A DNA stretch of 64,000 bases, from positions 190 through 64,189 of the forward strand of contig JAJAYD010000114.1 in NCBI GenBank assembly GCA_026786345.1, read 5' to 3'. The notes beneath the pieces are model-generated. The model was not told the DNA's origin. It ran no database searches and saw only the letters and a program-made list of their open reading frames with translations. A program made the translations under genes and the position numbers. The stretch comes from Chitinophagaceae bacterium. GTDB taxonomy: Bacteria; Bacteroidota; Bacteroidia; Chitinophagales; Chitinophagaceae. Below are positions 46,060-64,000 of the stretch, one piece after another. Numbering within the stretch: the first letter of the stretch is position 1; the number at the start of each line of letters is the position of its first letter.

Positions 46060-46692
46060 ATGGTCCACGTTTTCTATACCACATTTACTAACAAACTGCC
46101 GGCAGACAAGTACCAACAATTACTTGCTCAACTACCACCTATAATGCAGCAGCAGGTATCGGGATTTAGAAAATGGGAAGATGCACACAGAAGTGTATTG
46201 GGAAAGGCATTGTTGATAGAAGGCTTGAAAGAGTATAACCTTGGTTCCGTTTCGCTGGCAGATTTAAACTATACCGTCTTTCTAAAACCATTTTTTATTA
46301 ATGGCATTCATTTTAATATTTCGCATTCAGGAAATTGCATTGTTTGTGCCATTGGTACAACTGAGGTGGGTGTTGATGTTGAAGAAATAAAGGAAATACC
46401 TCTGTCTGATTTTAAAGAACTTTTCTCTCCGGAGGAATTGAAGCTCATTTTTGAAGACCCTTACGATTATGCGCCATTCTATACTTTATGGACACAAAAA
46501 GAGGCATTTTTAAAAGCAGTAGGAGTCGGGTTAAACATGCCGCTAAATAAAGTGATCATCCGAAACAATACCATTGAATACAACGGTAACACCTGGTATC
46601 TGAAACAATTGAGCATTCAAGAACGGTATATATGCCATGTTGCCTCCCCTATTTTAAATGTTCAGGTAAACCTTAAGGAACTACATTTTTAG
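46060..46692 (+). CDS. Sfp-type 4'-phosphopantetheinyl transferase
   Basis: KP, FNISHSG, VGVDVE and WTQKEAFLKAVG motifs. Confidence 0.93.
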   Translation: MVHVFYTTFTNKLPADKYQQLLAQLPPIMQQQVSGFRKWEDAHRSVLGKALLIEGLKEYNLGSVSLADLNYTVFLKPFFINGIHFNISHSGNCIVCAIGTTEVGVDVEEIKEIPLSDFKELFSPEELKLIFEDPYDYAPFYTLWTQKEAFLKAVGVGLNMPLNKVIIRNNTIEYNGNTWYLKQLSIQERYICHVASPILNVQVNLKELHF

Positions 46693-46927: not shown

Positions 46928-47662
46928 ATGGTTTCTATGAAAAAAAATATAAATCTGTTCTGCCTTCATTTTGCGGGTGGTAATAAATATTCCTATCGGC
47001 AATATGTTGAAAAGGCGCCTCCCTTTTTAAACCTGATTGCCCTTGAATCTCCTGGCAGAGGTGCCCGTATGCGGGAACCCCTTATTGCAGACATTCATGC
47101 CCTTGTAAATGATATGTATAGGCAAATAAGCAACGTGGTTGAAGATGTTCCTTATGCCATTTATGGACACAGTATGGGGGGGTTGGTAGCTTATCTTTTA
47201 TCAGTAAAACTAAAGAAGAACCATCACAAGCCACCCTTACAACTTTTCATTACCGGCACTTCGGGCCCGTCCTCCACATCACGCTCAGAAAAAAAACGAC
47301 ACCTGTTAGAAAAGATTGAATTTCTTCAGGAAGTGAAGGATTTGGGAGGTATGCCTGACGAAATTTTGGAAAATGACGAATTACTTCAATATTTTGAACC
47401 TATTCTTCGTTCAGATTTCATGCTTTCTGAGAATTACGTTTATGAAGATCATGCACCTTTAAATATTCCCATTACAGTAATTACCGGCACCGGCGAAGAC
47501 CTTACCTTGGAAGATATTAACCTCTGGCAAAAGGAATCTACTTTTCCGGTTGATTTTAAAAGGTTACCCGGCAACCATTTTTTTATTTATAAATATGCAC
47601 AGGAGATCGTCGATATTATTTCGCGCAAATTATACAACCATATTAAAGTTGAACAATTATGA
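46928..47662 (+). CDS. Type II (editing) thioesterase
   Basis: LFCLHFAGG, PGRG.R, GHSMG and GNHFF motifs. ATGA overlap with the next gene. Alternative start ATG at 46937. Confidence 0.92.
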   Translation: MVSMKKNINLFCLHFAGGNKYSYRQYVEKAPPFLNLIALESPGRGARMREPLIADIHALVNDMYRQISNVVEDVPYAIYGHSMGGLVAYLLSVKLKKNHHKPPLQLFITGTSGPSSTSRSEKKRHLLEKIEFLQEVKDLGGMPDEILENDELLQYFEPILRSDFMLSENYVYEDHAPLNIPITVITGTGEDLTLEDINLWQKESTFPVDFKRLPGNHFFIYKYAQEIVDIISRKLYNHIKVEQL

Positions 47663-49287
47663 ATAACAAGCAAGTATACCTTAAACCTAATGTAGTGTTG
47701 GAGCCTTTGGTAGACAAGTGGTATGCATGGAGCCATCTTATTTCTCCGGCAACTGCTGCAATGAACATTGTAAACCGTCACCTGAGTATAATCGATTCTT
47801 ATCTATCTGCCCCTTCTATACATGCCGAAGCAGTATTAAATCCAAAAATGCGGGGTGGTCCTTTTATGGATTTTGGTGGTAAAAGAGTTGATGAGGTTGA
47901 GGCATTACAAAAAGATACTCATGAAAAACATGAGCTGATTGTTCAGTTTGCAAAGGCAATAAAGGATCTTGACAAAATGCTTGCTACCGAAGCAAAAGGT
48001 TTTGGTCTTGAAACATTGTATGAAAAAGTACCGGAAATTTTAAAAGGATATGTTGAGCTGTATTACGATAGGCAGAACACCCCGGGCTTTAGATTTTTTG
48101 AATCACTTTTATATAACAGCGGGTTGTATAAAAAAGATATGCAAAGCATATCTATGTGGTTAACCAATAATGACGAAAGGCCGTTTTGCCTGAGTACACC
48201 GCGCCTTCAGGAAAAAGAAGTGATCAACTTAAACATCACCTTTGACAACCCGGTAATTGATGAGTTATCTAAAATGAAAAGGACCCCTCAATCATTGGGT
48301 TACATCAAGGCCATGTTGGGCATTCCTTCATCAAAGGAAGATTTGTTTGATTCATTTTTTACCGAAACGCCACCACCGCCTTACAAAAAGTATACGGGTG
48401 ACAAAATCAGAATGCGCTATTTCGGTCATGCCTGTATTCTTGTAGAAACAAAAGACATCAGCATATTAGTCGATCCGTTAATCAGCTATTATGGTTACCA
48501 TTCTGATGTGCAACATTTCTCCGACTGCGATCTGCCCGACATGATTGATTATGTTCTCATCACACACAATCACCAGGACCATATTTTATTTGAAACACTG
48601 TTACCGCTTAGGCACAAGATCAAAAACCTCATCGTTCCCCGCACCAACAGCGGTAAACTGGAGGATCCTGATCTTAAGTTGATGTTCGACAATATAGGTT
48701 TCAGCAATGTGTTTGCGCTGGATGAAATGGAAACCATTAAGTTTAGCGATGCTACCATAACGGGTCTGCCATTTATTGGAGAGCATAGTGATTTAAACAT
48801 ACTTACCAAGTCGTGCTTCCTTGTAAAAATTGGTGACTTTAAACTCTTATTCCTGGCAGATTCACGAATTGTAGAATCGAGGCTGTATAAACACATTTAT
48901 AAGCAGATTGGCGATGTAGACGTGATGTTTATAGGTATGGAGTGCGATGGTGCACCGCTTACCTGGTTGTACGGTCCTTTACTTACCAAAAAGTTAGCCC
49001 GCGATATGGACGGCAGCCGCAGGTTGGCCGGCTCCGATTGCGACAAAGGATTATCGCTGGTAGATATTTTTAACCCCAAAGAATTGTACGTGTATGCAAT
49101 GGGCCAGGAGCCCTGGTGTGAGTTCATCAGCAGCATAAAATATACTGATGAGTCAAACCCAATTGTTCAGTCGGATAAGCTGGTAAAAATTTGCCGCAAC
49201 AGGGGTATGATAGCAGAGCGCTTATATGGAGAGAAAGAATTGTTATACGATAAGCAGGCAGGTGCAGTTACTACTATCCAGATATAA
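47659..49287 (+). CDS. CmlA-like di-iron beta-hydroxylase (MBL fold) acting on NRPS-tethered amino acids
   Basis: N-terminal EPLV..WYAW.HL..P...GGP domain; GHAC, ITHNHQDH.LFETLL, PF.GEH.DL, FLADS, FIGME.GA.W.YGPL and YAMG.EPW. This motif series matches chloramphenicol CmlA as I recall it. Confidence 0.85.
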   Translation: MNNKQVYLKPNVVLEPLVDKWYAWSHLISPATAAMNIVNRHLSIIDSYLSAPSIHAEAVLNPKMRGGPFMDFGGKRVDEVEALQKDTHEKHELIVQFAKAIKDLDKMLATEAKGFGLETLYEKVPEILKGYVELYYDRQNTPGFRFFESLLYNSGLYKKDMQSISMWLTNNDERPFCLSTPRLQEKEVINLNITFDNPVIDELSKMKRTPQSLGYIKAMLGIPSSKEDLFDSFFTETPPPPYKKYTGDKIRMRYFGHACILVETKDISILVDPLISYYGYHSDVQHFSDCDLPDMIDYVLITHNHQDHILFETLLPLRHKIKNLIVPRTNSGKLEDPDLKLMFDNIGFSNVFALDEMETIKFSDATITGLPFIGEHSDLNILTKSCFLVKIGDFKLLFLADSRIVESRLYKHIYKQIGDVDVMFIGMECDGAPLTWLYGPLLTKKLARDMDGSRRLAGSDCDKGLSLVDIFNPKELYVYAMGQEPWCEFISSIKYTDESNPIVQSDKLVKICRNRGMIAERLYGEKELLYDKQAGAVTTIQI

Positions 49288-49613: not shown

Positions 49614-49668
49614 TAAGGGATAATAATATCGTAAGCGTTTAAAGTAATTTAAAGGTCAGTGAGAAAAC

Positions 49669-52600
49669 ATGCATACAGTTACAATCCCTTTACATCCTGC
49701 GCAGCACGATGTTTATACAGATCAACTCGTTAAAGGTAATAGCCCCTTATATAATGTAGGGGGCTATATCTGCTTAAAGGGAAAACTAAACAAGACATTA
49801 TTTAAAAAAGTTGTTACGGATGGGCCACGTTATTTCGATGCTTTTCATATGCGGTTCAACTTACAGGCCGCCGACTTTCAAACTTACATAGACAAGGATA
49901 CCGTACACTTAAAGGTGGATGAACTGGATTTTACCTCGCAGCCTAACCCGGCAGCCGCTGCTTTGGTATACATGCAGGAACGTTTCAATCAACCTTTCAA
50001 TTTTGAAATTGAAGCACCATTAACTGACCAGGCACTCCTGAAAATTTCTGAAAACGAACATTGGTTTTATGGTAAATACCACCACCTTATAACAGATGGA
50101 TATGGCTTTATTGTATGGATAAAATACCTGGCCGATACCTACAATGCCATGTCTTCGGGTCGGGAGCTAACAATTGATTATCCTCCTTACCAGCCCCAAA
50201 TAGAACAGGCAGCTAATTTTTATCAATCAGAAGCGTATAAAAAGCAAGGGGAATATTGGAAGCAAAAATTGGCAAAAAAGCAAGCGCAATTATTTCGTAA
50301 AAAGTATACGCCACCTTCAGCCACTCAAAATAAAAGTACCTCTTTTGTTGTTGAAACCAGCGAAGAGCAAATGGCTTTACTGGAGCAGGTTAAGCAACAA
50401 ACCAATGCCGGAATATTGCAATTAACGCTTGCTGCAATTGCTGTTTATTTTGGAAAGGCAACAGGCGAAAGCGAATTTGTTGTTGGAGTTCCTATACACA
50501 AAAGGGGTTCACGACACCTGCGAAACATAGTAGGAATGTTTAGTGGCATTTTGCCTTTTAAAAATATTTACCAACCGGCGTTTTCAGTACAACAGGCTTT
50601 AAACGATATATCCCGATCATTAAAAGATGATCTTAAAAACCAGCAATACATTTTAGGTGATATTGCCAAAGACCTGTCATTGCTACCCGGCGATAAATTG
50701 TTCGACGTTGTAGTTAATTACGAACCATTTAATTTCCAGGTCGACTTTGGAACCCATCTGCAGGCAAGTGTGTTTCAGTTGGCAAGCAACCAGGCCGATC
50801 ATGCATTGCAGTTTACATGGCAAGACCATGGAAAACAGCAGCCATTAATTTTGCAGGTAGATTACCAGCAACAATATTTTATTGAAACGGACATTCGTTT
50901 CATGGTTGATAGCCTGTTTAAAATATTCTGGCAATTCAGCAACAATACCACTGCCCGGCTTTCGGGTATTAATATTTTAGGCGATGAAGAGTTAAAGACA
51001 TTATCGTCTTTTGCTAATGCATCACAAGCGCCACTTGCAGAGGCAAACATGACTTCTTTGTTCGACCACCAGGCTTTACAAACGCCTGGTGCAATAGCGT
51101 TGATACACGATGATTCAAGCATTACTTATCAAAAGTTGCACGAACGCTCCAACCAGGTGGCTAACTACTTATTGTCGCTCAAACTGGCACCTGAAACCTT
51201 AATACCTGTTTGCATAGAAAGAGGTATTGAAATGGTTATCGGAATTTTAGGCATTCTTAAAGCAGGTGCAGCTTATGTACCCATTGATCCGGCCTATCCT
51301 GCAGACCGTATTCAATATATGTTGACTGACACAAGTGCAACGTTTGTGTTCAGCAATGTTTCGGGTAAAAAATACTTGCCTTCAACCGGCAATTTTCAAA
51401 TAATTGAACTGGACGATCCAACGCTGTTTGAATCATTCCCATCAACAGTAGCGGCCATACAAATACATCCTAATCAGCTTGCTTACGTTATCTATACTTC
51501 CGGTTCAACTGGAAAGCCAAAGGGAGTCTTGATTGAGCATCGAAATGCTTCGGCTTTTCTCAATTGGTGTCAGCAAGAGTTTTCGCCTGATGCTTTTGAA
51601 ATGGTATATGCCTGCACGTCCATTTGCTTCGATCTATCCATATTCGAACTGTTTTATCCATTGCGTATTGGCAAACCTATTCGCATTGTAGAAAATGGAT
51701 TGCACATTGCAAAGTATCTTCCCTTTGATAAAAAGGTATTTCTTAATACCGTACCAACGGTTATTGAAAACCTGTTGAATGAGAAGGTAAGTTTACAGAA
51801 TGTTACTGTAATAAATATGGCCGGAGAGCCGGTGCCTCAACAAGTTTTACAAGGGCTCGATACCCATAATATTGAAGTTAGAAATTTGTATGGTCCTACT
51901 GAGGATACAACCTACAGCACCGTGTTCAGGCTACATAAAAATCAACCTGTTTTAATTGGTAAGCCAATTACTAATTCCAGCATTTACCTGCTCAACAGGC
52001 AAAACGGGTTGGTGCCATTGGGCATGCCCGGTGAAATATGCATTGGCGGAGCAGGCCTTGCAAGAGGTTACCTAAACCGGCCTGAGTTAACTGCTGAAAA
52101 ATTCATTTCAAGTCCATTTTCAGAAGGCGAAAAATTATATAAAACCGGCGACCTTGGTTGCCGGACCAGCGATGGCAATATTCAATACCTGGGCCGTATG
52201 GATAACCAGGTAAAACTAAGAGGCTACCGTATTGAATTGGGTGAAATTGAAAATGTGATTCAGCAAAGCGGCATGGTGCAAAATGCTGTGGTTGTAGTTT
52301 ACCAGGATAGAGAAAATAATAAAATGCTGATTGCCTATGCTACAGCCGATCAATCCATTGATATCGACAGCCTGAATAATTATCTCAGGAGCAAGCTGCC
52401 CGATTACATGATACCTGCCCGATGGATGCAGCTTGACAAAATACCCCTGACACCAAACGGAAAAGTAGACAGAAAAAACCTTCCCGAACCTGGTGCAATA
52501 CTGGCGGCCGATAAGCCATTTGAAGCACCTGCCAACGAAATGGAGCAAGTGCTTTGTAATATTTGGAAAGAAGTTTTAGCAATAGACACCATCAGTGTTA

Positions 52601-55600
52601 ACGACAATTTTTTTGAACTGGGTGGCCATAGCATCAAGGCAATCCAGGTACTATCGCGTTTGCATAAAAGCCTCGAAATAAAAATTGATTTCAGTCTTTT
52701 TGCTTTGCACCCCACCATCAGGCAATTTGCAAATGCCATTCAAAGCCAGGTAAAGTCAACTTATACCAGTATTCAGAAAGTGCCCGACAGCGATTTGTAT
52801 GAGCTGTCTCATGCGCAAAAGCGTATGTATGTGCTGTGCCAGCTACAAGGCGGGTCAGTAAGTTTTAACAGCCCGGCAGCATTTGAAATTAGCGGCACAT
52901 TGGATGCTGGAGTTTTAAACCAGGTATTGCAATTTTTAATTGACCGCCACGAAAGTTTACGAACAGTATTTATAGAAAAGGATGGTGAGCCAAAGCAAAA
53001 AATTCTAAAGCCTGAGGAGGTTCCGTTTCACTTGCAAACATTGGATGTTTCGAACGACCATCATGCTGCTGATACCTTGCAGTCGTTTATTAATAAGGAA
53101 GCAACTACTGAATTCGATTTGGCAAAGGGGCCATTATTCAAAGCAATATTAATTGCCCAGTCACAGCAGCGACATACGTTATTTTTCAACATGCACCACA
53201 TCATCAGCGATGGTTGGTCAAAAGGAATCCTCATCAACGATTTCATTCAAACACTCTCTGGTCTACATCGGCAGCAAGCACCGGCATTACCGCCATTATT
53301 GGTTACTTATAAAGATTATGCAGCCTGGCAAAAGACAATAATTGAAAGCCAGCATAAATTCTGGGAACAGGCTTTAATACACCAGGCACCGGTTTTAAAT
53401 TTCCCTGCTGATTTTGAAAGACCTGCGGTGGTTACCTTCTCAGGCCAACTGTTGCAAACAGTGTTACCTGCTGAAACTACCAGTCAATTACAGGCATTTT
53501 GCGTTGCTCATAACATCACCCTAAATAATCTTTTATTTGCGCTTTATGGTTTAATGGTGGCGCATTACAGCAAACAACAGCAGGTTGTTATAGGCACACT
53601 TACTTCAGGCAGAAGCCACGCTGACCTTGAACAGGTGGTTGGATTGTTCATCAATTTCCTGCCCATTACGCTTCAAATTGATGGTGAAGCTTCCGTGTCG
53701 AAATACCTGCAGTCATGCCAGCAAACTCTTGCACTAGCTTACTCACACCAGGATTACCCGTTTGATTTAATGGTGGAGCATTTTGTGGCAACAAGAGATT
53801 TTTCCCGCAACCCATTATTTGATACAATGGTCAATTTTCATTCTGAGAATGAACTTGCTACGGAATACAAGATCGACCAGGAGATTTCTTCCCGGCAATT
53901 AACAATTAGTCCACTGCCCCAGTTTAAAGAAAACCTGTTTCAATCTAATCTTGACTTTAAGCTGGATATAGAACCGCTCGAACATTCACTCCTCTTCAAC
54001 CTTACTTACAATACCGGGTTGTTTACTAAAAAGCGGATGGAAAATTTTCTTAGCGAATTTAAAATGCTGGTGGAGAAAATAGCAACTAAGCCGTTAAGTA
54101 TCACCGCAGATTATATGACCATGCCTGTAGAGCCTGGTATTGCCACACAAAATACTACGCCTGAAACTGAATTTCCGGTTTGCATCAGTGGCACCTTTGT
54201 ATGCGAACCCCTTCTTGAATACATCTCTTACTGGGGCGATGAATACGATCTGAACCTGGATGTAAAATTTGCAGATTACAACCAGGTCTTTCAACAACTT
54301 CTTAATCCTGCAAGTATTATAAACACCAATAAGGGCATCAATGTAATTTTCATTCGCATGTACGATTGGCTTCGCGAAAAAAGTAATCTTTCTGAAAAGG
54401 GTACCGTTGATTACCTAAACCGTACTTATGAAGAGTTGTTACAGGCATTGGAGTTTTCAGCAACACGCAACTATGTGCCCATGTTGGTGGGTATTGTTTC
54501 GTTGCAGTATCATGCAGGCCTTTCTCAGGAAATAAACGACCATATCAGCCAGCTAAATCAAAAACTGAAAGACTGGTTACAGCAGCAAAATCCTTTCGTT
54601 TTACTCGATCTAAATAAAGCTGCAACCCTCTACGAAGTAGAAACTATTTTAGACGAAGCTGCTGATGAAATGGGGCATATTCCCTTTACACAGGAATATT
54701 TTGCTGCCCTCGGAACATATATAGCCCGTAAAATACGTTCTTATAGGTCGAAGGTGTATAAAGTGATTGCGCTTGACTGCGACAATACCTTGTGGAAAGG
54801 CATTGTGGGAGAATTGGGCTGTATGCAGGTGAGTGTAAATGAACACTTTGAGTACGTACAGCATTTTCTGATTGAAAAATACCAGGAGGGTTTTCTGCTG
54901 GTTTTATGCAGCAAAAATAATGAGCCGGATGTGTGGGAAGTATTTGATAAAAACCCGGCAATGAAGTTGAAAAGGAAGCATATTGCTGCTCACCGAATTA
55001 ACTGGAGCGACAAACCGCAAAATATTGCAGCGATAGCCAATGAGTTGAATGTAGGTTTAAACAGTTTTATTTTTATTGACGATAGCCAGTTTGAAGTTGA
55101 GCAAATGTCAATGGCCTGTCCGGAAGTACTGTCGTTGTTTTTGCCGGAGGATGAGAATGAATTAAAAAGTTTTGTTGACCATACCTGGGAGTTTGATGTA
55201 TTTAAAACAACCAGGGAAGATGTGCAGCGCAACCAGATGTATCAAACTGAAAAATCGCGTAAAGATGAGGAAACCAAACATGGTTCGCTGAAAGATTTTA
55301 TGAAATCGCTTGACATACAGGTGAATGTGCGTAATGTTGAGCAAACCGACCTGGACAGAAGTGTTCAGTTAAGCCTGCGTACCAACCAGTTTAACATGAA
55401 CGGCATCAGGCGGACAGCAGAAGAAATAACAAGCCGATTAAAACAACCATCGCACCTGAACTGGATTGTGGAGGTAAGCGACCGGTTTGGCGATTATGGA
55501 ATGGTAGGTTTATTGTTAGGTAGCCAAAAAGAGCAGGTCTTACAACTTGATACTTTTTTATTGAGCTGCAGGGTATTAGGGCGTGGGGTAGAAGAGCTGG

Positions 55601-55785
55601 TGTTGGAACAACTAAAGACCTATTGCCTGGCAAACAATTGCCGGGAGATAATGGCCCATTACCAGGTTACTGCTAAGAACAGGCCTTTTGAAGTATTTTT
55701 GAACAAAGCAGGATGGCAGCAAGATTCAAAAGGCGAAAACTGCCATTTGAAAATTAAATATTCTAAAGAAGAAATTTCGTTATAG
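49669..55785 (+). CDS. NRPS1: C(starter)-A(Ala)-T-C-FkbH (HAD-IIIC glyceryl transferase)
   Basis: HHLITDG (~50080); A-domain cores YTSGSTGKPKG, YGPTE, TGD and NGK; T motif LGGHS (~52621); HHIISDG (~53194); FkbH-like region with DCDNTLWKG (~54775), FIDD, RTNQFN and LSCRVLGRGVE (~55564). Hand-read A-domain code DLFNNALTYK. Confidence 0.92.
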   Translation: MHTVTIPLHPAQHDVYTDQLVKGNSPLYNVGGYICLKGKLNKTLFKKVVTDGPRYFDAFHMRFNLQAADFQTYIDKDTVHLKVDELDFTSQPNPAAAALVYMQERFNQPFNFEIEAPLTDQALLKISENEHWFYGKYHHLITDGYGFIVWIKYLADTYNAMSSGRELTIDYPPYQPQIEQAANFYQSEAYKKQGEYWKQKLAKKQAQLFRKKYTPPSATQNKSTSFVVETSEEQMALLEQVKQQTNAGILQLTLAAIAVYFGKATGESEFVVGVPIHKRGSRHLRNIVGMFSGILPFKNIYQPAFSVQQALNDISRSLKDDLKNQQYILGDIAKDLSLLPGDKLFDVVVNYEPFNFQVDFGTHLQASVFQLASNQADHALQFTWQDHGKQQPLILQVDYQQQYFIETDIRFMVDSLFKIFWQFSNNTTARLSGINILGDEELKTLSSFANASQAPLAEANMTSLFDHQALQTPGAIALIHDDSSITYQKLHERSNQVANYLLSLKLAPETLIPVCIERGIEMVIGILGILKAGAAYVPIDPAYPADRIQYMLTDTSATFVFSNVSGKKYLPSTGNFQIIELDDPTLFESFPSTVAAIQIHPNQLAYVIYTSGSTGKPKGVLIEHRNASAFLNWCQQEFSPDAFEMVYACTSICFDLSIFELFYPLRIGKPIRIVENGLHIAKYLPFDKKVFLNTVPTVIENLLNEKVSLQNVTVINMAGEPVPQQVLQGLDTHNIEVRNLYGPTEDTTYSTVFRLHKNQPVLIGKPITNSSIYLLNRQNGLVPLGMPGEICIGGAGLARGYLNRPELTAEKFISSPFSEGEKLYKTGDLGCRTSDGNIQYLGRMDNQVKLRGYRIELGEIENVIQQSGMVQNAVVVVYQDRENNKMLIAYATADQSIDIDSLNNYLRSKLPDYMIPARWMQLDKIPLTPNGKVDRKNLPEPGAILAADKPFEAPANEMEQVLCNIWKEVLAIDTISVNDNFFELGGHSIKAIQVLSRLHKSLEIKIDFSLFALHPTIRQFANAIQSQVKSTYTSIQKVPDSDLYELSHAQKRMYVLCQLQGGSVSFNSPAAFEISGTLDAGVLNQVLQFLIDRHESLRTVFIEKDGEPKQKILKPEEVPFHLQTLDVSNDHHAADTLQSFINKEATTEFDLAKGPLFKAILIAQSQQRHTLFFNMHHIISDGWSKGILINDFIQTLSGLHRQQAPALPPLLVTYKDYAAWQKTIIESQHKFWEQALIHQAPVLNFPADFERPAVVTFSGQLLQTVLPAETTSQLQAFCVAHNITLNNLLFALYGLMVAHYSKQQQVVIGTLTSGRSHADLEQVVGLFINFLPITLQIDGEASVSKYLQSCQQTLALAYSHQDYPFDLMVEHFVATRDFSRNPLFDTMVNFHSENELATEYKIDQEISSRQLTISPLPQFKENLFQSNLDFKLDIEPLEHSLLFNLTYNTGLFTKKRMENFLSEFKMLVEKIATKPLSITADYMTMPVEPGIATQNTTPETEFPVCISGTFVCEPLLEYISYWGDEYDLNLDVKFADYNQVFQQLLNPASIINTNKGINVIFIRMYDWLREKSNLSEKGTVDYLNRTYEELLQALEFSATRNYVPMLVGIVSLQYHAGLSQEINDHISQLNQKLKDWLQQQNPFVLLDLNKAATLYEVETILDEAADEMGHIPFTQEYFAALGTYIARKIRSYRSKVYKVIALDCDNTLWKGIVGELGCMQVSVNEHFEYVQHFLIEKYQEGFLLVLCSKNNEPDVWEVFDKNPAMKLKRKHIAAHRINWSDKPQNIAAIANELNVGLNSFIFIDDSQFEVEQMSMACPEVLSLFLPEDENELKSFVDHTWEFDVFKTTREDVQRNQMYQTEKSRKDEETKHGSLKDFMKSLDIQVNVRNVEQTDLDRSVQLSLRTNQFNMNGIRRTAEEITSRLKQPSHLNWIVEVSDRFGDYGMVGLLLGSQKEQVLQLDTFLLSCRVLGRGVEELVLEQLKTYCLANNCREIMAHYQVTAKNRPFEVFLNKAGWQQDSKGENCHLKIKYSKEEISL

Positions 55786-55788
55786 TTG

Positions 55789-58700
55789 ATGATCAATCCT
55801 AACAAAAGCAACCCTAAAGCACGAACGGGCAAGGATATTTTTAACCTTATAAAGGCAAAGCAACAAGCACCTGCTGAAGTTAAGATACCCAGGCCAATAG
55901 GTGATGTACAAGAGGCATTGGTAGTGCTATGGAACAAGGTTTTGACTGCGTCAAATTTTGATACAAACGATGATTTTTTTAAATCGGGCGGCAATAGTAT
56001 AAAAGCGGTACAACTGGCAAGCCAGGTAGCCAAACATTTTGGTGTTCCAATTGAGCTGACTGACATTTTCCTAAATACTTCCATTACCAGCCAGGCTGTT
56101 TTAATTCAGCAAAAGCAACAACAGGCTTCAATAAACACTCCCATACAACCACAGGAACGGCCCGAACTAATACCGCTATCTTTTAGCCAGGAACGTTTAT
56201 GGTTTATCGAAAAACTGGAAGGCAGTATACAGTATCATATTCCCCTGGTATTTTCTTTTAAAGGCGAGCTAAACATTGAGGCGCTTGAAGCTTCATTAAA
56301 AGAAATTGTAGAACGCCACGAAGTTCTCCGAACAGTTATTAAGGAAGAAGATGGTAAACCTTTTCAATGTATAAACAGTGTAAATGATTGGCAGCTTGAA
56401 AGGCAAACCATACCCGATTCTTCCGAAATCGAATCAAATGCAGCCATCAACCAGCTTGTAAATAAGCCATTTAATCTTGCCGGCGATTACATGCTGCGGG
56501 CTACTTTAATTGCCGAAGGTGGTAACGATCATTTACTTGTTTTGGTCATCCACCACATTGCATCCGACGGGTGGTCCATGTCAATAATGGCAGGCGAGTT
56601 AATTCAACTCTATCAACAACATAGTGGCGTAAATGTAGTGCTGTTACCTGCGCTTCCTTTGCAATATGCTGACTATGCATTATGGCAAAAGAAACACATT
56701 AGTCAGCAGCAACAAGCCAATAAACTGCTGTTTTGGAAGGATACAATGGAGGGGTTGAATCCCTTGTCATTTCCAACGGATTTTGCAAGACCCGTTACCC
56801 AAAGCACCAGGGGCGCACTGCTCGAATTTACTTTGCCAACCCAACTGGCCGCTGCCATAGCTGCACTAAGTAACCAGCAAGGGGTTACGTTGTTTAATAC
56901 ATTGCTGGCCGCATTCAATGTGCTTCTTTACCGGTACACCAACCAGGCCGATGTTTGTGTGGGTACTGTTGTAGCAAACCGCCCGGTCGAAGATTTGGAA
57001 AATCTTATAGGATTTTTTACCAACACCCTACCCATTCGAAACGAAGTGAAGGGTACGGAAAGTTTTACCGATTTTGTCCAACGGGTTAAGGCTACCACGC
57101 TTCGGGCTTTTGCCAACCAGGATGTGCCTGTCGAAAAAATAATCGACACCGTTGTTACCGAAAGAGATCTCAGCAGGCATCCCCTGTTTAACATCGTATT
57201 TGTATTACAAAACACACCGGATATTCCTGCTTTGGAAATAGGTGATTTGCGACTTTCACAAATTCCGTATCACCAGAATACCACAAAGTTCGACATCACC
57301 TTTAACCTGAAAGAAACGGCCAATGGTATTGAAGGTGAAGTGGAATATTGCATTGATCTCTTTACTCCACCAACCATCCATCGTTTTGTTCAGCATTATA
57401 TTTTGTTGCTTGAATCGATTGTAAAAGAACCTGCAACAGCTATTGCCGGTTTAAATATTTTAGGCGAAGACGAGCGGTATAAATTGATTACTGCCTTTAA
57501 CGATAACAGGTTTGACTTTGCCGAAGGCCAAACAATGGTGAGTCTTTTTGAAAAACAGGCTGCAAAAAATCCGACGGCTACAGCGCTGGTATTTCAAGAC
57601 GGGCAGTTGACGTATGGGCAGCTAAATACAAAGGCCAATCAACTGGCGCATTACCTGCAAACCAAAGGTGTACAGTCCCAAACGTTGGTACCTTTTTGTA
57701 TGGACCGTTGTACCGATATGATCGTAAGTATTCTGGGTATTCTTAAAGCAGGAGGCGCTTATGTTCCCATCGATCCCGCATACCCGCAGGAGCGAATTCG
57801 ATACATGCTGGACGATACCGGCGCCGCCCTCATTCTAACCAAAACTAAAAACAAGCAGGTAATTCCTGCCAATGATAACCTTACAGTAATTGACCTTGAT
57901 GAAAATAACAGGGAAATACAACTAAAGCCAGAAGAAAATATTGGCTGTAAGCTAACAGGAAGCAGTCTTGCTTATATCATTTATACCTCCGGTTCTACCG
58001 GTAGGCCTAAGGGGGTTATGATTGAGCACGGGAGCGTGGTTAACGAAGCCTTATACCAGGTTAAAGAGTTTGGTATCAATGCAAGTGAAAAGATCCTTCA
58101 ATTTTCAAATATTGCTTTTGATGCTTCTGTTGAGCAATATATGCTGGCCTTTACTTCGGGGGCAACACTGGTGCTGATCGATAAGGCAGTTATCAGCGAT
58201 CAGCAACAATTGTTCTCGCTGTTAAAAAAAGAAGCCATAACACATTTGCATGCAACGCCCAGCTTTTTAGAAGTTTTGCCTGCACAAAAATATGGTTCAT
58301 TAAAAAGGGTGATCGCCGGGGGCGAACAATGCTCACTTGCATTAGCTGCTAACTGGAGTAAACATGTAGCGTTTTACAATGAGTATGGGCCAACTGAAAC
58401 CACTATTACAATTACGGAGTGCCGGTTTTCTAATGACTTACCTGCTTCTGTAATGCCCATCGGTAAACCCCTGGCCAATAGCCAGGTGTATATTCTGGAT
58501 ACTCATGGCAATGTTGTTCCTATAGGCGTTGCAGGAGAAATTTATATAGGTGGGGCCCAGGTAGGCAGGGGATATTTAAATATGCCCGACCTGACAGCAG
58601 AGAAATTTATAAGCGATCCTTTCAGCAATAAAGCTGGAGCAAGGTTGTATAAAACCGGTGATCTTGGTCGCTGGATGGCAGACGGAAACCTGGAATACCT

Positions 58701-61700
58701 GGGCAGGATGGATGACCAGGTAAAGATCAGGGGATACCGCATAGAACTTGGCGAAATCGAAAGTGCAGTTTTACAAAGTAAACTGGTTAAGCAGGTGTTG
58801 GTTATTGCAGGCGATAAAGCCAAAGGCCTTCAACAGCAATTGGTTGCTTATGTGGTACCAGGTGAGCATTATAACAAGCAATCATTGCTGGACTATATAA
58901 GAAAGTACTTACCCGATTTCATGGTGCCCGCTATCTGGATAGAATTGGATGCGTTACCATTAAATGCCAACGGTAAGGTCGACAAAAAAGCTTTACCCGA
59001 TTACCAGCCCGACAAATTATCGGCCCGCAAATATGTTGCACCGGAAACGCCTTTGCAAAAAGCAATTGCCGAAACCTGGCAGGATTTGCTGGGTGTACAT
59101 CAAATAGGTATAGAAGATAACTTTTTTGAAAAGGGAGGAGATTCCATTTTAACCATACAGGTTGTAAGCAGGCTAAAACGATTGGGATATTCTATACAGC
59201 CTAAAGACATTTTTTTACACCAAACCATTAACAAGCTTGCACATGCAATAATAAACCGGATAAAAGAAGAAGATAAAGCAGAGCAGGATACCTTAAACGG
59301 CCCTGCAGGTTTACTGCCGGTGCAACAGTCCTGGTTAAGCGAAGCACAGCCTGTGCCATCGTATTTTAATCAAAGTGTGATGGTATCCATCGATAAAAAA
59401 GTTCCGGTTGAGTGGATACAAACTATTACGCACTCATTGGTAAACCACCACGATGCACTGCGCTTTAGATATAGTGAAAACGGTGGTCAATGGATACAGG
59501 AATATGGAGATTTTAGGGGAAGTGTTGAGGTGGAAGTTGTAGAAAACAACACGCAAAATTTTGAAGCAGCAATACAACAGGTAAGTTTAAAATACCAGGC
59601 TCAATTATCCATTGAAAAGGGTGAAATCATAAAAGTTGTTTTCATTAATACGCTTGAAAGCGAAGTAACAAACAAAGTGCTTATCATCATCCATCACCTT
59701 GCGGTAGATGGAATTTCGTGGCGTATCCTGCTTGAAGATTTTGAAAGAGGTTTGGCTACGTTATCTGGTGGAAATTCCCTTGATCTTCAGCGTAAAACCT
59801 ACTCATACCGCCAATGGTTTACCGCCCTTGTTCAATACGGTTCAACAGCCAGGCTGCTTCATCAAAAAGCATTTTGGAAAAAGTTGGTTGATAACATTCA
59901 ACCACTGCAAACCGACTTTATATATAACCAAAATGTATTGGTAAAAGAGACTCAAACAGTAACCGTGTCTCTTAACCAGGATTATACGGATCGTTTATTA
60001 AAACAGGATCCGCTTGCCTACAGAATTGAGGTAACTGAAATACTGATAGGTGCGTTGTATTTAACGCTTTCGAAATGGTATAAAAGCAATTCGATTACCA
60101 TTTGGTTGGAAGGTCATGGAAGAGAAACTTTTCAACACAGTGTGGATGTAAGTAGTACGGTAGGTTGGTTTACCACCATGTTTCCCCTGTTGTTACAATC
60201 TGACAACGACGACCTTGCTGAAGTTTTGGATGGAATAAAAGAGCATGTAAGGCAAATTCCGGATAAGGGTATCGGCTATGGTATACTTAAATATTTAATT
60301 AAAGAAGAAGCATTACAAGGCAGTCATCCTGTTGATTTATTATTTAACTACCTCGGCCAGTTGGATAATATACTGCCGACCGGCCAATGGTTACAGGTAG
60401 ACGAAAATTCGTTGAAAGCAGAAAGTGCTCCCAATAATTTCTTTAAGCAAAAAATCTCTATTGGCGCCTTTGTAAGTAAAGGTAAATTACAAGTTAACTG
60501 GCTATTTAGTACCAGGCACTTTCATGCTGAAACCATACAATTGCTCTCCGGCCAGTTTGTAAATAATTTGGTTGCGCTCCTCGATTTTTATGCTAAAAAA
60601 CCTGCCACCCATTTTATACCATCCGACTTTTTTTTAAGCGATGTTGTAAGCCCCGGCGAGCTGGATAGCTTTCTTGAAAAGCCATATAATAACGGATATA
60701 TAAGCGACTATATAAGCGATGTTTATAAGTTAAGTGGTTTGCAACAGGGCATGCTGTTTCATACCATATATGAACCGGCTTCAGGCGCTTACATCAATCA
60801 ATTTTTTGCCAATTTAACCAACCCCAATACAGAGGTTTTAAGTAAGGCTTGGCAACACTTAATTGCTGAACACAGCATTTTGCGTAGTGCCTTTTTTAAT
60901 AATGATTTTAACATTCCCGTCCAGGGTGTTTTCCGCCAGGTGGTATTACCGGTAAATGAGGTAGATGTAAGCAATCTTAATGCAGAGCAGCAAAAAAACT
61001 ATCTGAATAATTTTGTTGAAAGCGATCGCACTGCAGGCTTTGATATTGAGGTGCCGCCATTGATGCGTTTGTCACTGTTTCGCTTAAATCAGACTACATT
61101 CAAAATGGTATGGACAAGCCACCATATTTTATTTGATGGTTGGTCGCTGCACATACTCTTCTACAAGTTTTTACAGGCGTACGAAAAACTGTCGTCAGGC
61201 AGGCAACTCTCCATAATTAACGAAGACCCTTTTAGCGATTACATACATTATCTTGATAACAGGGATGCTTCGCCTGAAGAAGATTATTGGCGTTCCTATG
61301 TAAAGGGAGTTGAAGATGGAACAACGCTTCCCGTTAACCAGGTGGCTAAAAAGCACAATGAAAAAGTATTAGAGTATAAAAAGCATGTGTTGCCTATATC
61401 TCCATCAATTAGCGCAAGCCTGCAAAAATTTGCCCGCGAACATAAGATTACTATAAACACAATTTTCCAGGCAACCTGGGCTTACCTGTTGCATACATAT
61501 ACACACAATCAAACGGTATTTTTTGGGGTTACAGTATCGGGCAGGCCACCTGAATTTGCTAATGTAGAAAGTAGGGTCGGAATGTACATTAATACGGTTC
61601 CCCTGAAGTCTGTTATTGATGATGACACAGTAATTGCAGTTTGGCTGCAGAACATTCAGCAGGAGCAGGCCTACGCCCAACAGTTTCAATATACCCCTAT

Positions 61701-64000
61701 ACAAAACATACAGGAGTGGTCAGGTGTACGGTCAGGGCTATTCGATACCTTGCTGGTTTTCGAAAATTATCCCTTTAATAAACAAATACAGTCGGAGCAG
61801 TGGAGTTTACATATTAGTGACGTGGAAATGGACGAACGAACCAATTATCCGCTTACAATAGGTGTAACCAATTATGATCAATTGCTGGTCTCTTTTAATT
61901 ACAATTCCAACGTACTATGCGAGGAATACATCCAAAATATTGGGCGGCATTTTCAGCGTGTACTCGAACAAATAATTGATAGTCATTCTGTAAAAGATAT
62001 AAAGATATTATCAGCAGCCGAAGAGCATCATTTGCTGGTCGATTTTAATAATACCGACATCCGGTTTCCGCAATTTAAAAACCTGGCTGAAGCATTTAAT
62101 TACCAGGTAGAAAGACAGCCTGGTGCAATAGCTGTAATGTTTGATAACACCGGTGTAACCTATCAGCAGCTTAATGAAAAAGCCAACCGCATAGCCCACT
62201 TTTTAAAGCAACAGGGAATAGGTTTGCAAACTCTCGTACCTATTTGTGTTGGGCGTGGTGTTGATATGATTGCAGGATTGCTGGGTATATTAAAGGCAGG
62301 TGCCGCTTACATACCAATAGACCCCGATTATCCACAGGAACGTATAAATTTTGTATTAAAAGATAGTGATGCTACTCACGTTCTTTGCAACAACAATACA
62401 ATCTCAAAGTTTGCTCTTTTACCCGGCTTACAGGCTTTAAACATTGACGAGTACAGTGCGGAAATTAAACGCCAGCCGGCAAATGAGCTTAACCTCAACA
62501 TCCTGTCACATCATTTGGCATACATTATTTATACTTCGGGTTCAACCGGTTTGCCAAAAGGGGTTATGGTAGAGCATGGTGGTGTGGTAAACCTTGCATA
62601 TAGCCAGGCTACCCCGTTGTGGTTACAACCCGGTACACGTACGCTTCAATTTGCATCGTACAGTTTCGACGCCTCGTGCTACGAAATTTTTAATACCCTG
62701 TTGAGCGGTGGGCAATTGGTCATTCCGCAAAAAGAAGATCTTTCTTCGCCGCAGGCATTTAACGGGTTTATAAGTAAACATAAAGTGCAGGTTGCCGTTT
62801 TACCGCCTACGTTTTTGCAGTTGGTAGCAGACTATACGGCCACACTGCAAACCATAGTTTCAGCAGGCGAAGCTTTAAACCCTTTAACTTATCTACAGCT
62901 TAAGGCCAAAGGCATACGTTTTATAAACGCTTATGGCCCTACCGAGACAACGGTTTGCGCTACCCTTACTGACCATCCCATTACAGCAGAAAATATCATT
63001 ACGATTGGTAAGCCGGTTTCCAATGTAAAAATTCGCATTTTAAACGATAAAGGGCAACTGGTACCTGTTAATGTAAGCGGCGAAATTTGTGTAGCAGGTG
63101 TACAGGTTGCACGAGGTTATTTAAACCGGCCGGATATAAACGAAAAGAAGTTTGTTAAAGATCCTTTTGGCGGTGGCAGAATGTATAAAACAGGCGACGT
63201 GGGTCGCTGGTTACCCGATGGAAATATTGAATACCTTGGAAGGATTGATGACCAGGTTAAAATAAGGGGATTAAGAATTGAACCTGGTGAGATAGAAAAT
63301 ACATTGCTGCAATACAAGGGCATTACCCAGGCTATTGTTCTTACAAAACAGCTTAATAACGATAAGGTATTGGTGGCGTATTATGTGCCTTCAAACGTGG
63401 TAGATAGCAGCACTTTGAAAAACTTTTTATCCGAAAAGTTGCCTGCTTTTATGGTGCCCGAATTCATAATGGGCATCGATCAGGTTCCGGTTACCATAAG
63501 TGGCAAGGTTGATAAAAAATTACTGCCTGCGCCAAGAATTGAAGATGGTTCAGGAGGGTATTCGGCACCAGTCACCGTGCTACAAAAACAACTTGCCGGT
63601 TTATGGCATAGCATACTTGGCTACGAAAAAATAAGCATCGATACCGACTTCTTTAGTGTGGGAGGAAATTCTATTTCAGCTATGCGTTTTGTTTCAGCGC
63701 TTCGCAAAGAGTTGAACATTGAACTACCTATTAAAGAGTTGTTTTTACATCCCTCCATTCAAGAACTGGCTACCATTATTGAGACCTCTCAAAGCAAAAA
63801 TCTGCTTCCTGCTATTCTTGCAAAAGAACGGCCTGAATTTATTCCGCTTGCATTTAGCCAGGCAAGGCTATGGTTCATTCATCAATTACAGGGTACGCAA
63901 TCATACCATTTACCTGCTGCGCTCCAATTAAAAGGAACTTTAAATATCGACGCACTTGAAAAAGCTATAAGAAGTGTTATTGATCGTCATGAAGTGCTGC
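55789..64000 (+). CDS. NRPS2 (partial, runs off the window end): T-C-A-T-E-C-A-T-C...
   Basis: Absent from the ORF track because there is no stop in the window. From ATG at 55789 the frame holds at every point I checked: GGNS (55987), HHIASDG (56551), A domain, GGDS (~59133), E domain HHLAVDG (59692) with EGHGRE, VGWFT and FNYLGQ, HHILFDG (61120), A domain, GGNS (63661), then PLAFSQARLWF...RHEVL at the window end. Confidence 0.92.
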   Translation, partial: MINPNKSNPKARTGKDIFNLIKAKQQAPAEVKIPRPIGDVQEALVVLWNKVLTASNFDTNDDFFKSGGNSIKAVQLASQVAKHFGVPIELTDIFLNTSITSQAVLIQQKQQQASINTPIQPQERPELIPLSFSQERLWFIEKLEGSIQYHIPLVFSFKGELNIEALEASLKEIVERHEVLRTVIKEEDGKPFQCINSVNDWQLERQTIPDSSEIESNAAINQLVNKPFNLAGDYMLRATLIAEGGNDHLLVLVIHHIASDGWSMSIMAGELIQLYQQHSGVNVVLLPALPLQYADYALWQKKHISQQQQANKLLFWKDTMEGLNPLSFPTDFARPVTQSTRGALLEFTLPTQLAAAIAALSNQQGVTLFNTLLAAFNVLLYRYTNQADVCVGTVVANRPVEDLENLIGFFTNTLPIRNEVKGTESFTDFVQRVKATTLRAFANQDVPVEKIIDTVVTERDLSRHPLFNIVFVLQNTPDIPALEIGDLRLSQIPYHQNTTKFDITFNLKETANGIEGEVEYCIDLFTPPTIHRFVQHYILLLESIVKEPATAIAGLNILGEDERYKLITAFNDNRFDFAEGQTMVSLFEKQAAKNPTATALVFQDGQLTYGQLNTKANQLAHYLQTKGVQSQTLVPFCMDRCTDMIVSILGILKAGGAYVPIDPAYPQERIRYMLDDTGAALILTKTKNKQVIPANDNLTVIDLDENNREIQLKPEENIGCKLTGSSLAYIIYTSGSTGRPKGVMIEHGSVVNEALYQVKEFGINASEKILQFSNIAFDASVEQYMLAFTSGATLVLIDKAVISDQQQLFSLLKKEAITHLHATPSFLEVLPAQKYGSLKRVIAGGEQCSLALAANWSKHVAFYNEYGPTETTITITECRFSNDLPASVMPIGKPLANSQVYILDTHGNVVPIGVAGEIYIGGAQVGRGYLNMPDLTAEKFISDPFSNKAGARLYKTGDLGRWMADGNLEYLGRMDDQVKIRGYRIELGEIESAVLQSKLVKQVLVIAGDKAKGLQQQLVAYVVPGEHYNKQSLLDYIRKYLPDFMVPAIWIELDALPLNANGKVDKKALPDYQPDKLSARKYVAPETPLQKAIAETWQDLLGVHQIGIEDNFFEKGGDSILTIQVVSRLKRLGYSIQPKDIFLHQTINKLAHAIINRIKEEDKAEQDTLNGPAGLLPVQQSWLSEAQPVPSYFNQSVMVSIDKKVPVEWIQTITHSLVNHHDALRFRYSENGGQWIQEYGDFRGSVEVEVVENNTQNFEAAIQQVSLKYQAQLSIEKGEIIKVVFINTLESEVTNKVLIIIHHLAVDGISWRILLEDFERGLATLSGGNSLDLQRKTYSYRQWFTALVQYGSTARLLHQKAFWKKLVDNIQPLQTDFIYNQNVLVKETQTVTVSLNQDYTDRLLKQDPLAYRIEVTEILIGALYLTLSKWYKSNSITIWLEGHGRETFQHSVDVSSTVGWFTTMFPLLLQSDNDDLAEVLDGIKEHVRQIPDKGIGYGILKYLIKEEALQGSHPVDLLFNYLGQLDNILPTGQWLQVDENSLKAESAPNNFFKQKISIGAFVSKGKLQVNWLFSTRHFHAETIQLLSGQFVNNLVALLDFYAKKPATHFIPSDFFLSDVVSPGELDSFLEKPYNNGYISDYISDVYKLSGLQQGMLFHTIYEPASGAYINQFFANLTNPNTEVLSKAWQHLIAEHSILRSAFFNNDFNIPVQGVFRQVVLPVNEVDVSNLNAEQQKNYLNNFVESDRTAGFDIEVPPLMRLSLFRLNQTTFKMVWTSHHILFDGWSLHILFYKFLQAYEKLSSGRQLSIINEDPFSDYIHYLDNRDASPEEDYWRSYVKGVEDGTTLPVNQVAKKHNEKVLEYKKHVLPISPSISASLQKFAREHKITINTIFQATWAYLLHTYTHNQTVFFGVTVSGRPPEFANVESRVGMYINTVPLKSVIDDDTVIAVWLQNIQQEQAYAQQFQYTPIQNIQEWSGVRSGLFDTLLVFENYPFNKQIQSEQWSLHISDVEMDERTNYPLTIGVTNYDQLLVSFNYNSNVLCEEYIQNIGRHFQRVLEQIIDSHSVKDIKILSAAEEHHLLVDFNNTDIRFPQFKNLAEAFNYQVERQPGAIAVMFDNTGVTYQQLNEKANRIAHFLKQQGIGLQTLVPICVGRGVDMIAGLLGILKAGAAYIPIDPDYPQERINFVLKDSDATHVLCNNNTISKFALLPGLQALNIDEYSAEIKRQPANELNLNILSHHLAYIIYTSGSTGLPKGVMVEHGGVVNLAYSQATPLWLQPGTRTLQFASYSFDASCYEIFNTLLSGGQLVIPQKEDLSSPQAFNGFISKHKVQVAVLPPTFLQLVADYTATLQTIVSAGEALNPLTYLQLKAKGIRFINAYGPTETTVCATLTDHPITAENIITIGKPVSNVKIRILNDKGQLVPVNVSGEICVAGVQVARGYLNRPDINEKKFVKDPFGGGRMYKTGDVGRWLPDGNIEYLGRIDDQVKIRGLRIEPGEIENTLLQYKGITQAIVLTKQLNNDKVLVAYYVPSNVVDSSTLKNFLSEKLPAFMVPEFIMGIDQVPVTISGKVDKKLLPAPRIEDGSGGYSAPVTVLQKQLAGLWHSILGYEKISIDTDFFSVGGNSISAMRFVSALRKELNIELPIKELFLHPSIQELATIIETSQSKNLLPAILAKERPEFIPLAFSQARLWFIHQLQGTQSYHLPAALQLKGTLNIDALEKAIRSVIDRHEVL

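What the first reader, a model, noticed from the sequence alone, without database searches (positions are those of the whole stretch)
49669..64000. NRPS line with an internal FkbH glycerate module: candidate new glycerate-containing lipodepsipeptide from Bacteroidota
Seen: Cstarter-A-T-C-FkbH | T-C-A-T-E-C-A-T-C..., with intact HHxxxDG in the four complete C domains and intact DxDxT and SCR motifs in FkbH. The first A code, DLFNNALTYK, is an Ala signature. Known: FkbH-like domains load glycerate from 1,3-bisphosphoglycerate onto carrier proteins, and in vioprolide biosynthesis a C domain esterifies such a glyceryl unit with a fatty acid. Inference: here FkbH replaces the A domain of module 2. 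Because glycerate has no amine, the C domain should form an ester to an (acyl-)Ala donor, giving acyl-Ala-O-glyceryl-D-Xaa-(beta-OH)Phe-.... I know of no described Bacteroidota product with this start.
Basis: partly seen in the sequence, partly recalled or inferred. Interest (0 to 1): 0.85.

Follow-up and report, generated by a model that had tools for sequence, protein, structure and literature searches.

The report
Glycerate-ester starter cassette in Chitinophagaceae NRPS
These two genes begin a peptide assembly line that likely joins a fatty-acyl-alanine cap by an ester bond to glycerate; this kind of module is already described, but this start recurs in dozens of undescribed Bacteroidota clusters and the cap may be a removable pro-drug handle.

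Summary
Observation confirmed: NRPS1 (49669-55785) is C-A-T-C-FkbH; NRPS2 (55786 onward) is T-C-A-T-E-C-A-T-C; all cited motifs are intact. The ester mechanism is well supported, but its novelty was overstated. An internal C-FkbH-T module with a peptidyl donor is described for cystomanamide. An FkbH in place of an A domain is in print for a Flavobacterium cluster. The same split C-A-T-C-FkbH | T layout sits in a Bacteroidota monobactam-type cluster (G475), and the producer of SQ 28,332 encodes a C-A-T-C-FkbH protein. What I did not find described is the starter-C version: 60 of the 77 best homologs have it, with a variable first residue (Ala, basic, Ser-like), beside a CmlA hydroxylase, feeding very different peptides through a carrier with a conserved RTGKD leader. 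Cap-less relatives exist. Best reading: acyl-Ala-O-glyceroyl-peptide assembly (0.7). About even odds that the cap is later cut off, as in vioprolide. The product is unknown and the line is broken across contigs. The scan noted an in-line C-FkbH-T in another Bacteroidota genome before (e1-4601062), but no look-alike of this sequence. New variant of a known kind; interest 0.45.

The parts
46060..46692 (+). Sfp-type phosphopantetheinyl transferase
   Evidence: PF01648 + PF22624
46928..47662 (+). Type II thioesterase (GHSMG)
   Evidence: PF00975 E 3e-39; motif
47659..49287 (+). CmlA-type di-iron beta-hydroxylase (HNHQDH); target residue uncertain
   Evidence: PF18456 E 3e-91; 72% identical to the CmlA of the G475 monobactam-type cluster
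49669..55785 (+). NRPS1, 2038 aa: Cstarter-A(Ala)-T-C-FkbH
49675..50976 (+). Starter-type C domain (HHLITDG), predicted to N-acylate Ala
   Evidence: best solved relatives 7C1K/7C1H (E 4e-34; recalled as the rhizomide starter C) and EntF; own long-branch clade
51061..52473 (+). A domain, code DLFNNALTYK (Ala predicted)
   Evidence: best single-domain solved relative McyA 8JBR, 445 bits; Ala assignment of this code and of McyA module 2 is recalled
52543..52746 (+). T1 (GGHSI)
52789..54120 (+). Pre-FkbH C domain (HHIISDG), LCL-derived, predicted ester-forming
   Evidence: best solved relative TycC 2JGP; clade with other Bacteroidota pre-FkbH C domains 100/100; 44% to P0121 and 43% to G475 versus 30% to the next C of its own line
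54205..55755 (+). FkbH: N-terminal domain + HAD (DCDNT) + GNAT-like domain (LSCR)
   Evidence: TIGR01686; model pLDDT 84.5 matches BF1531 3SLR and GNAT folds
55786..64000 (+). NRPS2, open at 3' end: leader-T-C-A-T-E-C-A-T-C...
55789..55908 (+). Conserved N-terminal leader (R/K)TGKD(I/L)xxL of the T-first partner; candidate docking element
   Evidence: K and D invariant in 11 of 11 aligned partners; 20 more by regex and 5 variants among 27 T-first hits
55909..56112 (+). N-terminal T (GGNSI), predicted glyceryl carrier
56161..60609 (+). Module 3: C-A(DAEHIGEITK, basic residue predicted)-T-E
   Evidence: 8 of 10 positions match the Arg consensus of PMC12283262; ApnA A1 second among single-domain solved relatives
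60715..63786 (+). Module 4: DCL-type C-A(DAYVVAAVCK, aromatic residue predicted)-T
   Evidence: TycA/GrsA rank just below 8XJZ among single-domain solved relatives; groups with post-E C domains
63832..64000 (+). Start of module 5 C domain; the contig continues into a partial A (DATKVGEVG, Asn-type) and ends

Best explanation
NRPS1 and the N-terminal carrier of NRPS2 form a two-gene start cassette that likely builds a fatty-acyl-Ala cap, likely loads glycerate onto that carrier through FkbH, and is predicted to join the two by an ester bond before ordinary peptide extension. Steps: (1) A1 activates Ala onto T1 and the starter C acylates it (inferred). (2) FkbH takes 1,3-bisphosphoglycerate, removes the phosphate, and passes glycerate via its Cys to the GGNSI carrier of NRPS2 (inferred from family chemistry); the RTGKD leader probably helps the two proteins meet (untested). 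(3) The pre-FkbH C transfers acyl-Ala to a glycerate hydroxyl; the 2-OH is the vioprolide precedent (inferred). (4) NRPS2 adds a D-basic residue, an aromatic residue, an Asn-type residue and more. By synteny the line ends on contig C233 with ...Arg-type, Asp, D-Xaa and a Cys-type thioesterase. I put the odds that the cap is then hydrolysed off, leaving a glyceroyl-peptide as the active form, at about even. The confidence figure covers the assembly chemistry.
For: Intact domains and motifs. Precedent for FkbH standing in for A and for an ester-forming C (PMC8949500; PMC9581180; PMC10099666; PMC7383572). 72 of the 77 best homologs are C-A-T-C-FkbH and all 72 keep HHxxxDG in the pre-FkbH C. Those C domains form one clade apart from the line's own elongation C domains (27 rows, SH 100; 9 rows, 100/100). 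A T-first gene with the RTGKD leader follows FkbH in the window, L001, L002, L032, L034, L035, L036, L041 and L042, and lies elsewhere in the cluster in G422 and G475. No other NRPS of the complete G061 line starts this way. With balanced training, 78% of 36 such T domains score as FkbH-type, against 76% of fused FkbH-T domains left out in turn and 7% of held-out A-type T domains. There is no separate ACP in the complete G061 cluster.
Against: No product, loading or ester is shown; the host is an uncultured, 72% complete genome and the line is broken across contigs. The C-domain clade is partly a product of selection, because homologs were gathered with the C-FkbH region. Pre-FkbH C domains overall are not one clade (at least 3 changes), so the tree does not prove ester chemistry. 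With unbalanced training only 19 of 36 split T domains scored FkbH-type (window +4.6). In L038 and L040 no T-first gene follows FkbH. For cap removal: no esterase or exporter was seen in the flanks of G000, G005, G012 or G061; module 1 has no E domain; the capped residue varies; cystomanamide B keeps its ester.
Confidence: 0.7

Rival explanations
1. Same assembly, but the acyl-Ala-O-glyceroyl start is permanent and the final product is a stable lipodepsipeptide. This is one of the two fates inside the best explanation.
For: Cystomanamide B retains Phe-glycerate-Tyr. No dedicated hydrolase in four related clusters. The first residue varies among 60 homologs: 32 DAE(H/E), 19 Ala, 7 Ser-like, 2 Asp/Asn, unlike a fixed pro-motif. 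Minimal lines T-C-A(Gly or Asn)-T-TE exist (P0143, P0144), whose products would be mostly cap.
Against: Vioprolide loses its acyl group from glycerate and corramycin is proposed to. Cystomanamide A lacks glycerate-Tyr. Cap-less relatives exist (L002, P0066).
Confidence: 0.35
2. FkbH acts as an independent starter giving an N-glyceroyl peptide; the Cstarter-A-T-C part is bypassed or acylates something else.
For: L002 has a stand-alone FkbH directly before the T-first gene, no C remnant upstream, and no pre-FkbH-type C in its genome (best 98 bits versus 215-311 in the four others). P0066 begins FkbH-T-C.
Against: The pre-FkbH C keeps its catalytic motif in all 72 C-A-T-C-FkbH homologs and is inherited with FkbH. 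G062 is fragmented, so not finding the C there is weak.
Confidence: 0.12
3. FkbH serves the surrounding polysaccharide locus (glyceryl decoration through another carrier) or loads a modified C3 unit, and does not put plain glycerate in the peptide.
For: The cluster is embedded in an exopolysaccharide locus. Stand-alone FkbH genes sit in polysaccharide loci of relatives G025, G032 and G037.
Against: Those stand-alone FkbHs are only 26-30% identical, against 46-55% for NRPS-fused ones. The cassette occurs without polysaccharide genes in G422, G475, L037 and L041. NRPS2's first T has no A domain of its own. No FkbK/FkbI-type dehydrogenases were seen in the complete G061 cluster.
Confidence: 0.1

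Closest known systems
Cystomanamide NRPS (Cystobacter fuscus; Etzbach 2014, seen only through review passages in PMC9581180 and PMC8949500)
   Same: Internal C-FkbH-T module in place of C-A-T, with a peptidyl donor; lipopeptide with beta-hydroxy residues; the line ends in T-E-TE, as on C233 and in G061.
   Different: There it is module 4 after an epimerising module. Here it is module 2 after an L-configured acyl-amino acid, it is split between two genes, and the peptide is unrelated and longer.
Vioprolide VioA and corramycin ComK starts (FAAL-ACP-C-FkbH-T; PMC10099666, PMC7383572, PMC12397197 passages)
   Same: A lipid-bearing donor in module 1 is esterified to glycerate in module 2; possible later hydrolysis of the ester.
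   Different: The donor here is acyl-amino acid from Cstarter-A-T, not a fatty acid from FAAL-ACP; host is Bacteroidota; split genes.
Bacteroidota monobactam-type clusters (Flavobacterium Leaf82 in PMC11298585; G475; P0121/AQX14458.1 of [Flexibacter] sp. ATCC 35208, the SQ 28,332 producer)
   Same: Same pre-FkbH C clade and same C-A-T-C-FkbH gene end. In G475, the same T-first partner with the RTGKD leader (T-C-A-T-E then C-A-T-C-A-T) and a 72% identical CmlA.
   Different: Their first C is degenerate and fed by upstream modules (Asp-rich leader). G475 ends in a SulM-type TE (QCN) with a sulfotransferase and has SbnA/B and a PF00144 hydrolase; none of these was seen for this cluster. That P0121 lies in the deposited monobactam cluster KY502195.1 is likely but not shown.
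Chitinopeptin clusters (Chitinophaga; PMC9248904 section 8)
   Same: Chitinophagaceae starter-C lipopeptide NRPS with a CmlA-type hydroxylase.
   Different: No FkbH (0 occurrences in text and supplements searched); the ester there is the TE-made macrolactone.
Colibactin/xenocoumacin acyl-D-Asn pro-drug modules (recalled)
   Same: An acyl-amino-acid first module that could act as a removable cap.
   Different: Amide not ester; fixed D-Asn with an E domain and a dedicated peptidase; none of these is present here.

Membership tests
In-line FkbH glycerate module (C-FkbH-T) | FkbH stands in place of an A domain between a C and a T | tested here: met
   C-FkbH ends NRPS1 and a T opens NRPS2
In-line FkbH glycerate module (C-FkbH-T) | Intact HAD motifs and acceptor Cys | tested here: met
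   DCDNT, CSKN, FIDDS, LSCR; invariant in 12 aligned relatives
In-line FkbH glycerate module (C-FkbH-T) | Catalytic HHxxxDG in the upstream C and Ser in the T | tested here: met
   HHIISDG; GGNSI
In-line FkbH glycerate module (C-FkbH-T) | The T is the cognate carrier of FkbH | tested here: inconclusive
   Supported by gene order and by the profile test (78% versus 7%); the linker homology test was inconclusive
In-line FkbH glycerate module (C-FkbH-T) | Glyceryl loading and ester formation shown biochemically | not testable with these tools
   needs protein MS and in vitro assay
Vioprolide/corramycin start | FAAL-ACP fatty-acyl donor in module 1 | tested here: not met
   Module 1 is C-A(amino acid; TIGR01733 and D235-type code)-T
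Cystomanamide cluster | Peptidyl donor to the FkbH module | tested here: met
   A-T precedes the pre-FkbH C
Cystomanamide cluster | Five-module Asn-Asn-Phe-GA-Tyr line with FkbH fourth | tested here: not met
   FkbH is second and the codes differ
Sulfazecin-type monobactam cluster | Terminal Dap module, SulM-type TE with QCN, sulfotransferase | tested here: not met
   The inferred end (C233) is T-E-TE with GHCTGG and no sulfotransferase domain; the C114-C233 link is by synteny only. The features are met in G475.
Starter-C lipopeptide NRPS | N-terminal C of starter type | tested here: met
   Best solved relatives are starter-type (identity of 7C1K recalled); separate clade
Starter-C lipopeptide NRPS | N-acylation and nature of the acyl group | not testable with these tools
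   no product known
Acyl-D-Asn pro-drug module (recalled features) | C-A(Asn)-T-E first module plus dedicated peptidase | tested here: not met
   Ala code, no E in module 1, no peptidase seen in the flanks

The most novel reading that the evidence does not exclude
A portable Bacteroidota pro-drug cassette: [cap]-C-FkbH plus an RTGKD-leader carrier hangs a swappable cap on glycerate by an ester, so that one hydrolysis releases a glyceroyl-peptide. The cap would be acyl-Ala, acyl-basic or acyl-Ser in dozens of Chitinophagaceae lines and an Asp-rich peptide in monobactam clusters. This would be the ester counterpart of the acyl-D-Asn pro-drug module. It would explain why Bacteroidota monobactams such as PB-5266 and SQ 28,332 begin with glyceric acid (structures recalled, not checked) although clusters of this type carry several upstream modules.
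Probability: 0.35. Interest if true: 0.7.

Novelty: new variant of a known kind. Interest (0 to 1): 0.45.

Why it matters
The module chemistry is known, so this single cluster is not a surprise. The family is the useful part. It is a recurrent start cassette on many unrelated peptides in a phylum with few known products, and it gives a search signature (pre-FkbH C clade, RTGKD leader). It warns that product predictions must allow for loss of everything upstream of glycerate. It also offers cultured test cases: Flavitalea antarctica for the starter-C type, and Pedobacter and Chitinophaga for the monobactam type. A split C-FkbH | T junction that tolerates many donors and downstream residues could serve as an ester-inserting part for NRPS engineering.

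Tried and rejected
Complex prediction of FkbH with the leader-T fragment: no answer (score 0.06, mark 0.32, controls not folded); not evidence either way. Test that the RTGKD leader is the remnant of the fused FkbH-T linker: the register and look agree, but a profile of 44 fused linkers scored 11 split leaders at a median of 1.9 bits against 0.9 for 165 A-T linkers; only G475 scored high (13.4), the window 1.9; inconclusive. No contig overlap joins C114 to C233 and the laid contigs did not close the gap. C30 ends in a different TE and was rejected as the end of this line. No RNA holder listed. No genome with a near-identical copy of P0121 was found among 300 family genomes, 7 of genus g149 or 103 of genus g34 (best 56%). 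The TE-sulfotransferase search returned no ATCC 35208 protein in the length range searched. The structures of SQ 28,332 and PB-5266 could not be checked: searches gave only citations. The primary papers tried (Li 2017, Etzbach 2014) are not held. A-domain codes were not found in PMC12283262 or its supplement, apart from one DAED passage. The promoter scan was below chance (9 versus 13.2). In the metagenome scan 46 of 73 loci had no FkbH and were set aside. The first tree run did not finish. Look-ups in earlier findings by full word list, by sequence and by place were empty.

Full report
Observation. The window holds PPTase, type II thioesterase and CmlA genes (46060-49287), then NRPS1 (49669-55785, 2038 aa) and NRPS2 (55786 to beyond the window). 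The FkbH model (pLDDT 84.5) has an N-terminal plus HAD part matching BF1531 and a GNAT-like C-terminal part carrying LSCR. The first C is closest to starter-type solved structures and the second to an LCL domain. Codes are DLFNNALTYK (Ala; assignment recalled, McyA best single-domain match), DAEHIGEITK (basic) and DAYVVAAVCK (aromatic). T9SS cargo genes and the names of the best homologs place the host in Bacteroidota. The genome is a 72% complete assembly whose DNA is held by glacier and aquatic metagenome runs (11 runs, 6 studies).

The rest of the line. Contig C114 ends 2.2 kb past the window inside an Asn-type A domain. Contig C233 carries E-C-A(Arg-type)-T, then C-A(Asp)-T-C-A-T-E-TE, followed by wza and wcaJ. 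The complete cluster of G061 and fragments of G005 and G012 end with the same last gene and the same neighbours, so C233 is the likely end; no overlap proves it. G061 has 16 units (Ala, glycerate, then 14 residues). The internal codes differ among G000, G005, G012 and G061: start and end are conserved, the middle is not.

The family. The C-FkbH region found 1984 proteins, of which 120 were listed. Among the best 77, 72 are C-A-T-C-FkbH. Of these, 60 have an intact first C (the window included; one, P0075, looks like an elongation C) and 12 have a degenerate or truncated one. Named ones come from Ferruginibacter, Ginsengibacter, Flavitalea antarctica, Ignavibacteria, Pedobacter and [Flexibacter] sp. 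ATCC 35208. Among the 60, the first code is DAE(H/E) in 32, Ala in 19, Ser-like in 7 and Asp/Asn in 2. The cassette is patchy: 5 of 29 genomes of the own genus (one is the unpublished G021, without it 4 of 28), 1 of 400 sampled from the family, 6 of 103 in genus g34, mostly fused forms. In a metagenome scan 27 of 73 loci had FkbH. Twelve were of this type, most directly after cmlA where the flank is present; others had fused A-T-C-FkbH-T modules. So in-line FkbH modules are common in sequence data.

Which carrier. In six metagenome loci, L001 and L002 a T-first gene follows FkbH directly; in G422 and G475 it lies elsewhere in the cluster; in L038 and L040 other genes follow. All 11 aligned partners share a leader with invariant KD, typically RTGKDIxNL, which the other NRPSs of G061 lack. 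A profile search found 27 T-first proteins among 77 hits; 20 have the motif by regex and 5 carry variants, and the next residue varies widely. These T domains scored as FkbH-type in 78% of cases with balanced training (fused left out 76%, A-type 7%), but only 19 of 36 with unbalanced training. Homology of the leader to the fused linker was inconclusive. The pre-FkbH C groups with its Bacteroidota counterparts at 100/100, apart from the line's own elongation C domains. Homologs were selected with this region, and pre-FkbH C domains as a whole are not monophyletic.

Prior art. [quoted passage not shown] PMC8949500 (passages) states that FkbH stands in place of A domains and that an ester-forming C links glycerate in vioprolide. 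[quoted passage not shown] PMC7383572 (passages) puts the acyl group on the secondary hydroxyl. [quoted passage not shown] PMC9248904 (passages, section 8, supplement search) cites a monobactam cluster deposit for ATCC 35208 and has no mention of FkbH. PMC12397197, PMC11837247, PMC7440613 and PMC12283262 were seen as passages. The primary papers were not seen. Ten searches found no described product with an acyl-amino-acid-O-glyceroyl start. The library lacks most subscription journals and bioRxiv supplements are closed, so this is weak evidence of absence.

The monobactam link. G475, a closed genome, carries C*-A(Asp)-T-C-FkbH, 56% identical to P0121. It also has T-C-A(Gly)-T-E with the RTGKD leader, and C-A(Asn)-T-C-A-T-TE-sulfotransferase whose TE matches SulM (8W2D, E 2e-65, QCN motif). 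SbnA/B homologs, CmlA, TauD, a PF00144 hydrolase and three further upstream A modules complete the cluster. Named Chitinophaga filiformis proteins fall in the 90% clusters of homologs of the two downstream NRPSs. I recall that PB-5266 and SQ 28,332 begin with glyceric acid and that PB-5266 has a small residue and dehydroasparagine before the lactam, which would fit the modules after FkbH. I could not check this. If right, everything upstream of glycerate is cut off in that branch. Cap-less relatives (L002, with no pre-FkbH-type C found in its fragmented genome; P0066) point the same way. Against it: no hydrolase was seen beside the window's cluster or three close relatives, although G422 has an alpha/beta hydrolase and L041 a penicillin-amidase gene next to theirs; the capped residue varies; cystomanamide B keeps its ester.

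Verdict. Shown: architecture, intact motifs, conserved split, leader motif, family spread, residue variation, shared clade with monobactam-type clusters. Inferred: acylation, glyceryl loading, ester formation, the C233 ending, cap removal. The cluster works like the cystomanamide and vioprolide glycerate modules and passes their sequence tests, but it is not a member of those clusters nor of the monobactam family. It is a new variant of a known kind with an unknown product. Interest 0.45 rather than 0.85; the removable-cap reading (probability 0.35) would deserve 0.7.

Noticed in passing
window 49471-49620: A ~150-bp dispersed element with inverted ends between cmlA and NRPS1; 109 blastn hits on 73 contigs of the genome, 36 near full length. 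MITE- or REP-like.
   Followed up: partly
window 10236-45933 and G000:C233:13460-16023: The NRPS cluster sits inside an exopolysaccharide locus: wzc and glycosyltransferases, two T9SS cargo genes, then the NRPS, with wza and wcaJ after the terminal TE; the wza-wcaJ neighbours are the same in G005, G012 and G061.
   Followed up: partly
G000:C233:4442-13258; G061:C1:59281-68121; L133; L138: The terminal thioesterase has Cys in place of Ser (GHCTGG) and directly follows an E domain in four genomes; other TEs of G000 also have Cys (GHCIGG, GYCFG).
   Followed up: no
L137:1152-13694 (G012:C75); L025:1-468 (G422): A second T-first NRPS with the RTGKD leader lies away from any FkbH gene in G012, and the T-first gene is divergent in G422; FkbH may load carriers in trans.
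   Followed up: no
P0143, P0144: Minimal partners T-C-A(Gly or Asn)-T-TE; with the cassette they would give very small acyl-Xaa-O-glyceroyl-amino acids, lipid-like in size.
   Followed up: no
G475:C1:7176024-7221891: Complete monobactam-type cluster with a SulM-type TE fused to a sulfotransferase and a C-FkbH | T junction; predicted core glyceroyl-Gly-Asn-Dap.
   Followed up: partly
L019, L021, L022 (G032, G037, G025): Stand-alone FkbH genes in polysaccharide loci, next to genes that look like MBOAT acyltransferases (by eye) and in G037 a small carrier, 26-30% identical to the NRPS-fused FkbH.
   Followed up: no
G481:C6, G493:C1, G471:C10, G508:C34: Other large clusters in genus g34 with fused C-FkbH-T modules, some with an extra ~330-430 aa domain beside FkbH.
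   Followed up: no
G000:C220:6984-11010: A second starter-C-A-T-TE gene with an Ala-like code is split into two frames at about 7470; frameshift or assembly error.
   Followed up: no
window 35866-40941: 1691-aa T9SS cargo protein with no Pfam match.
   Followed up: no
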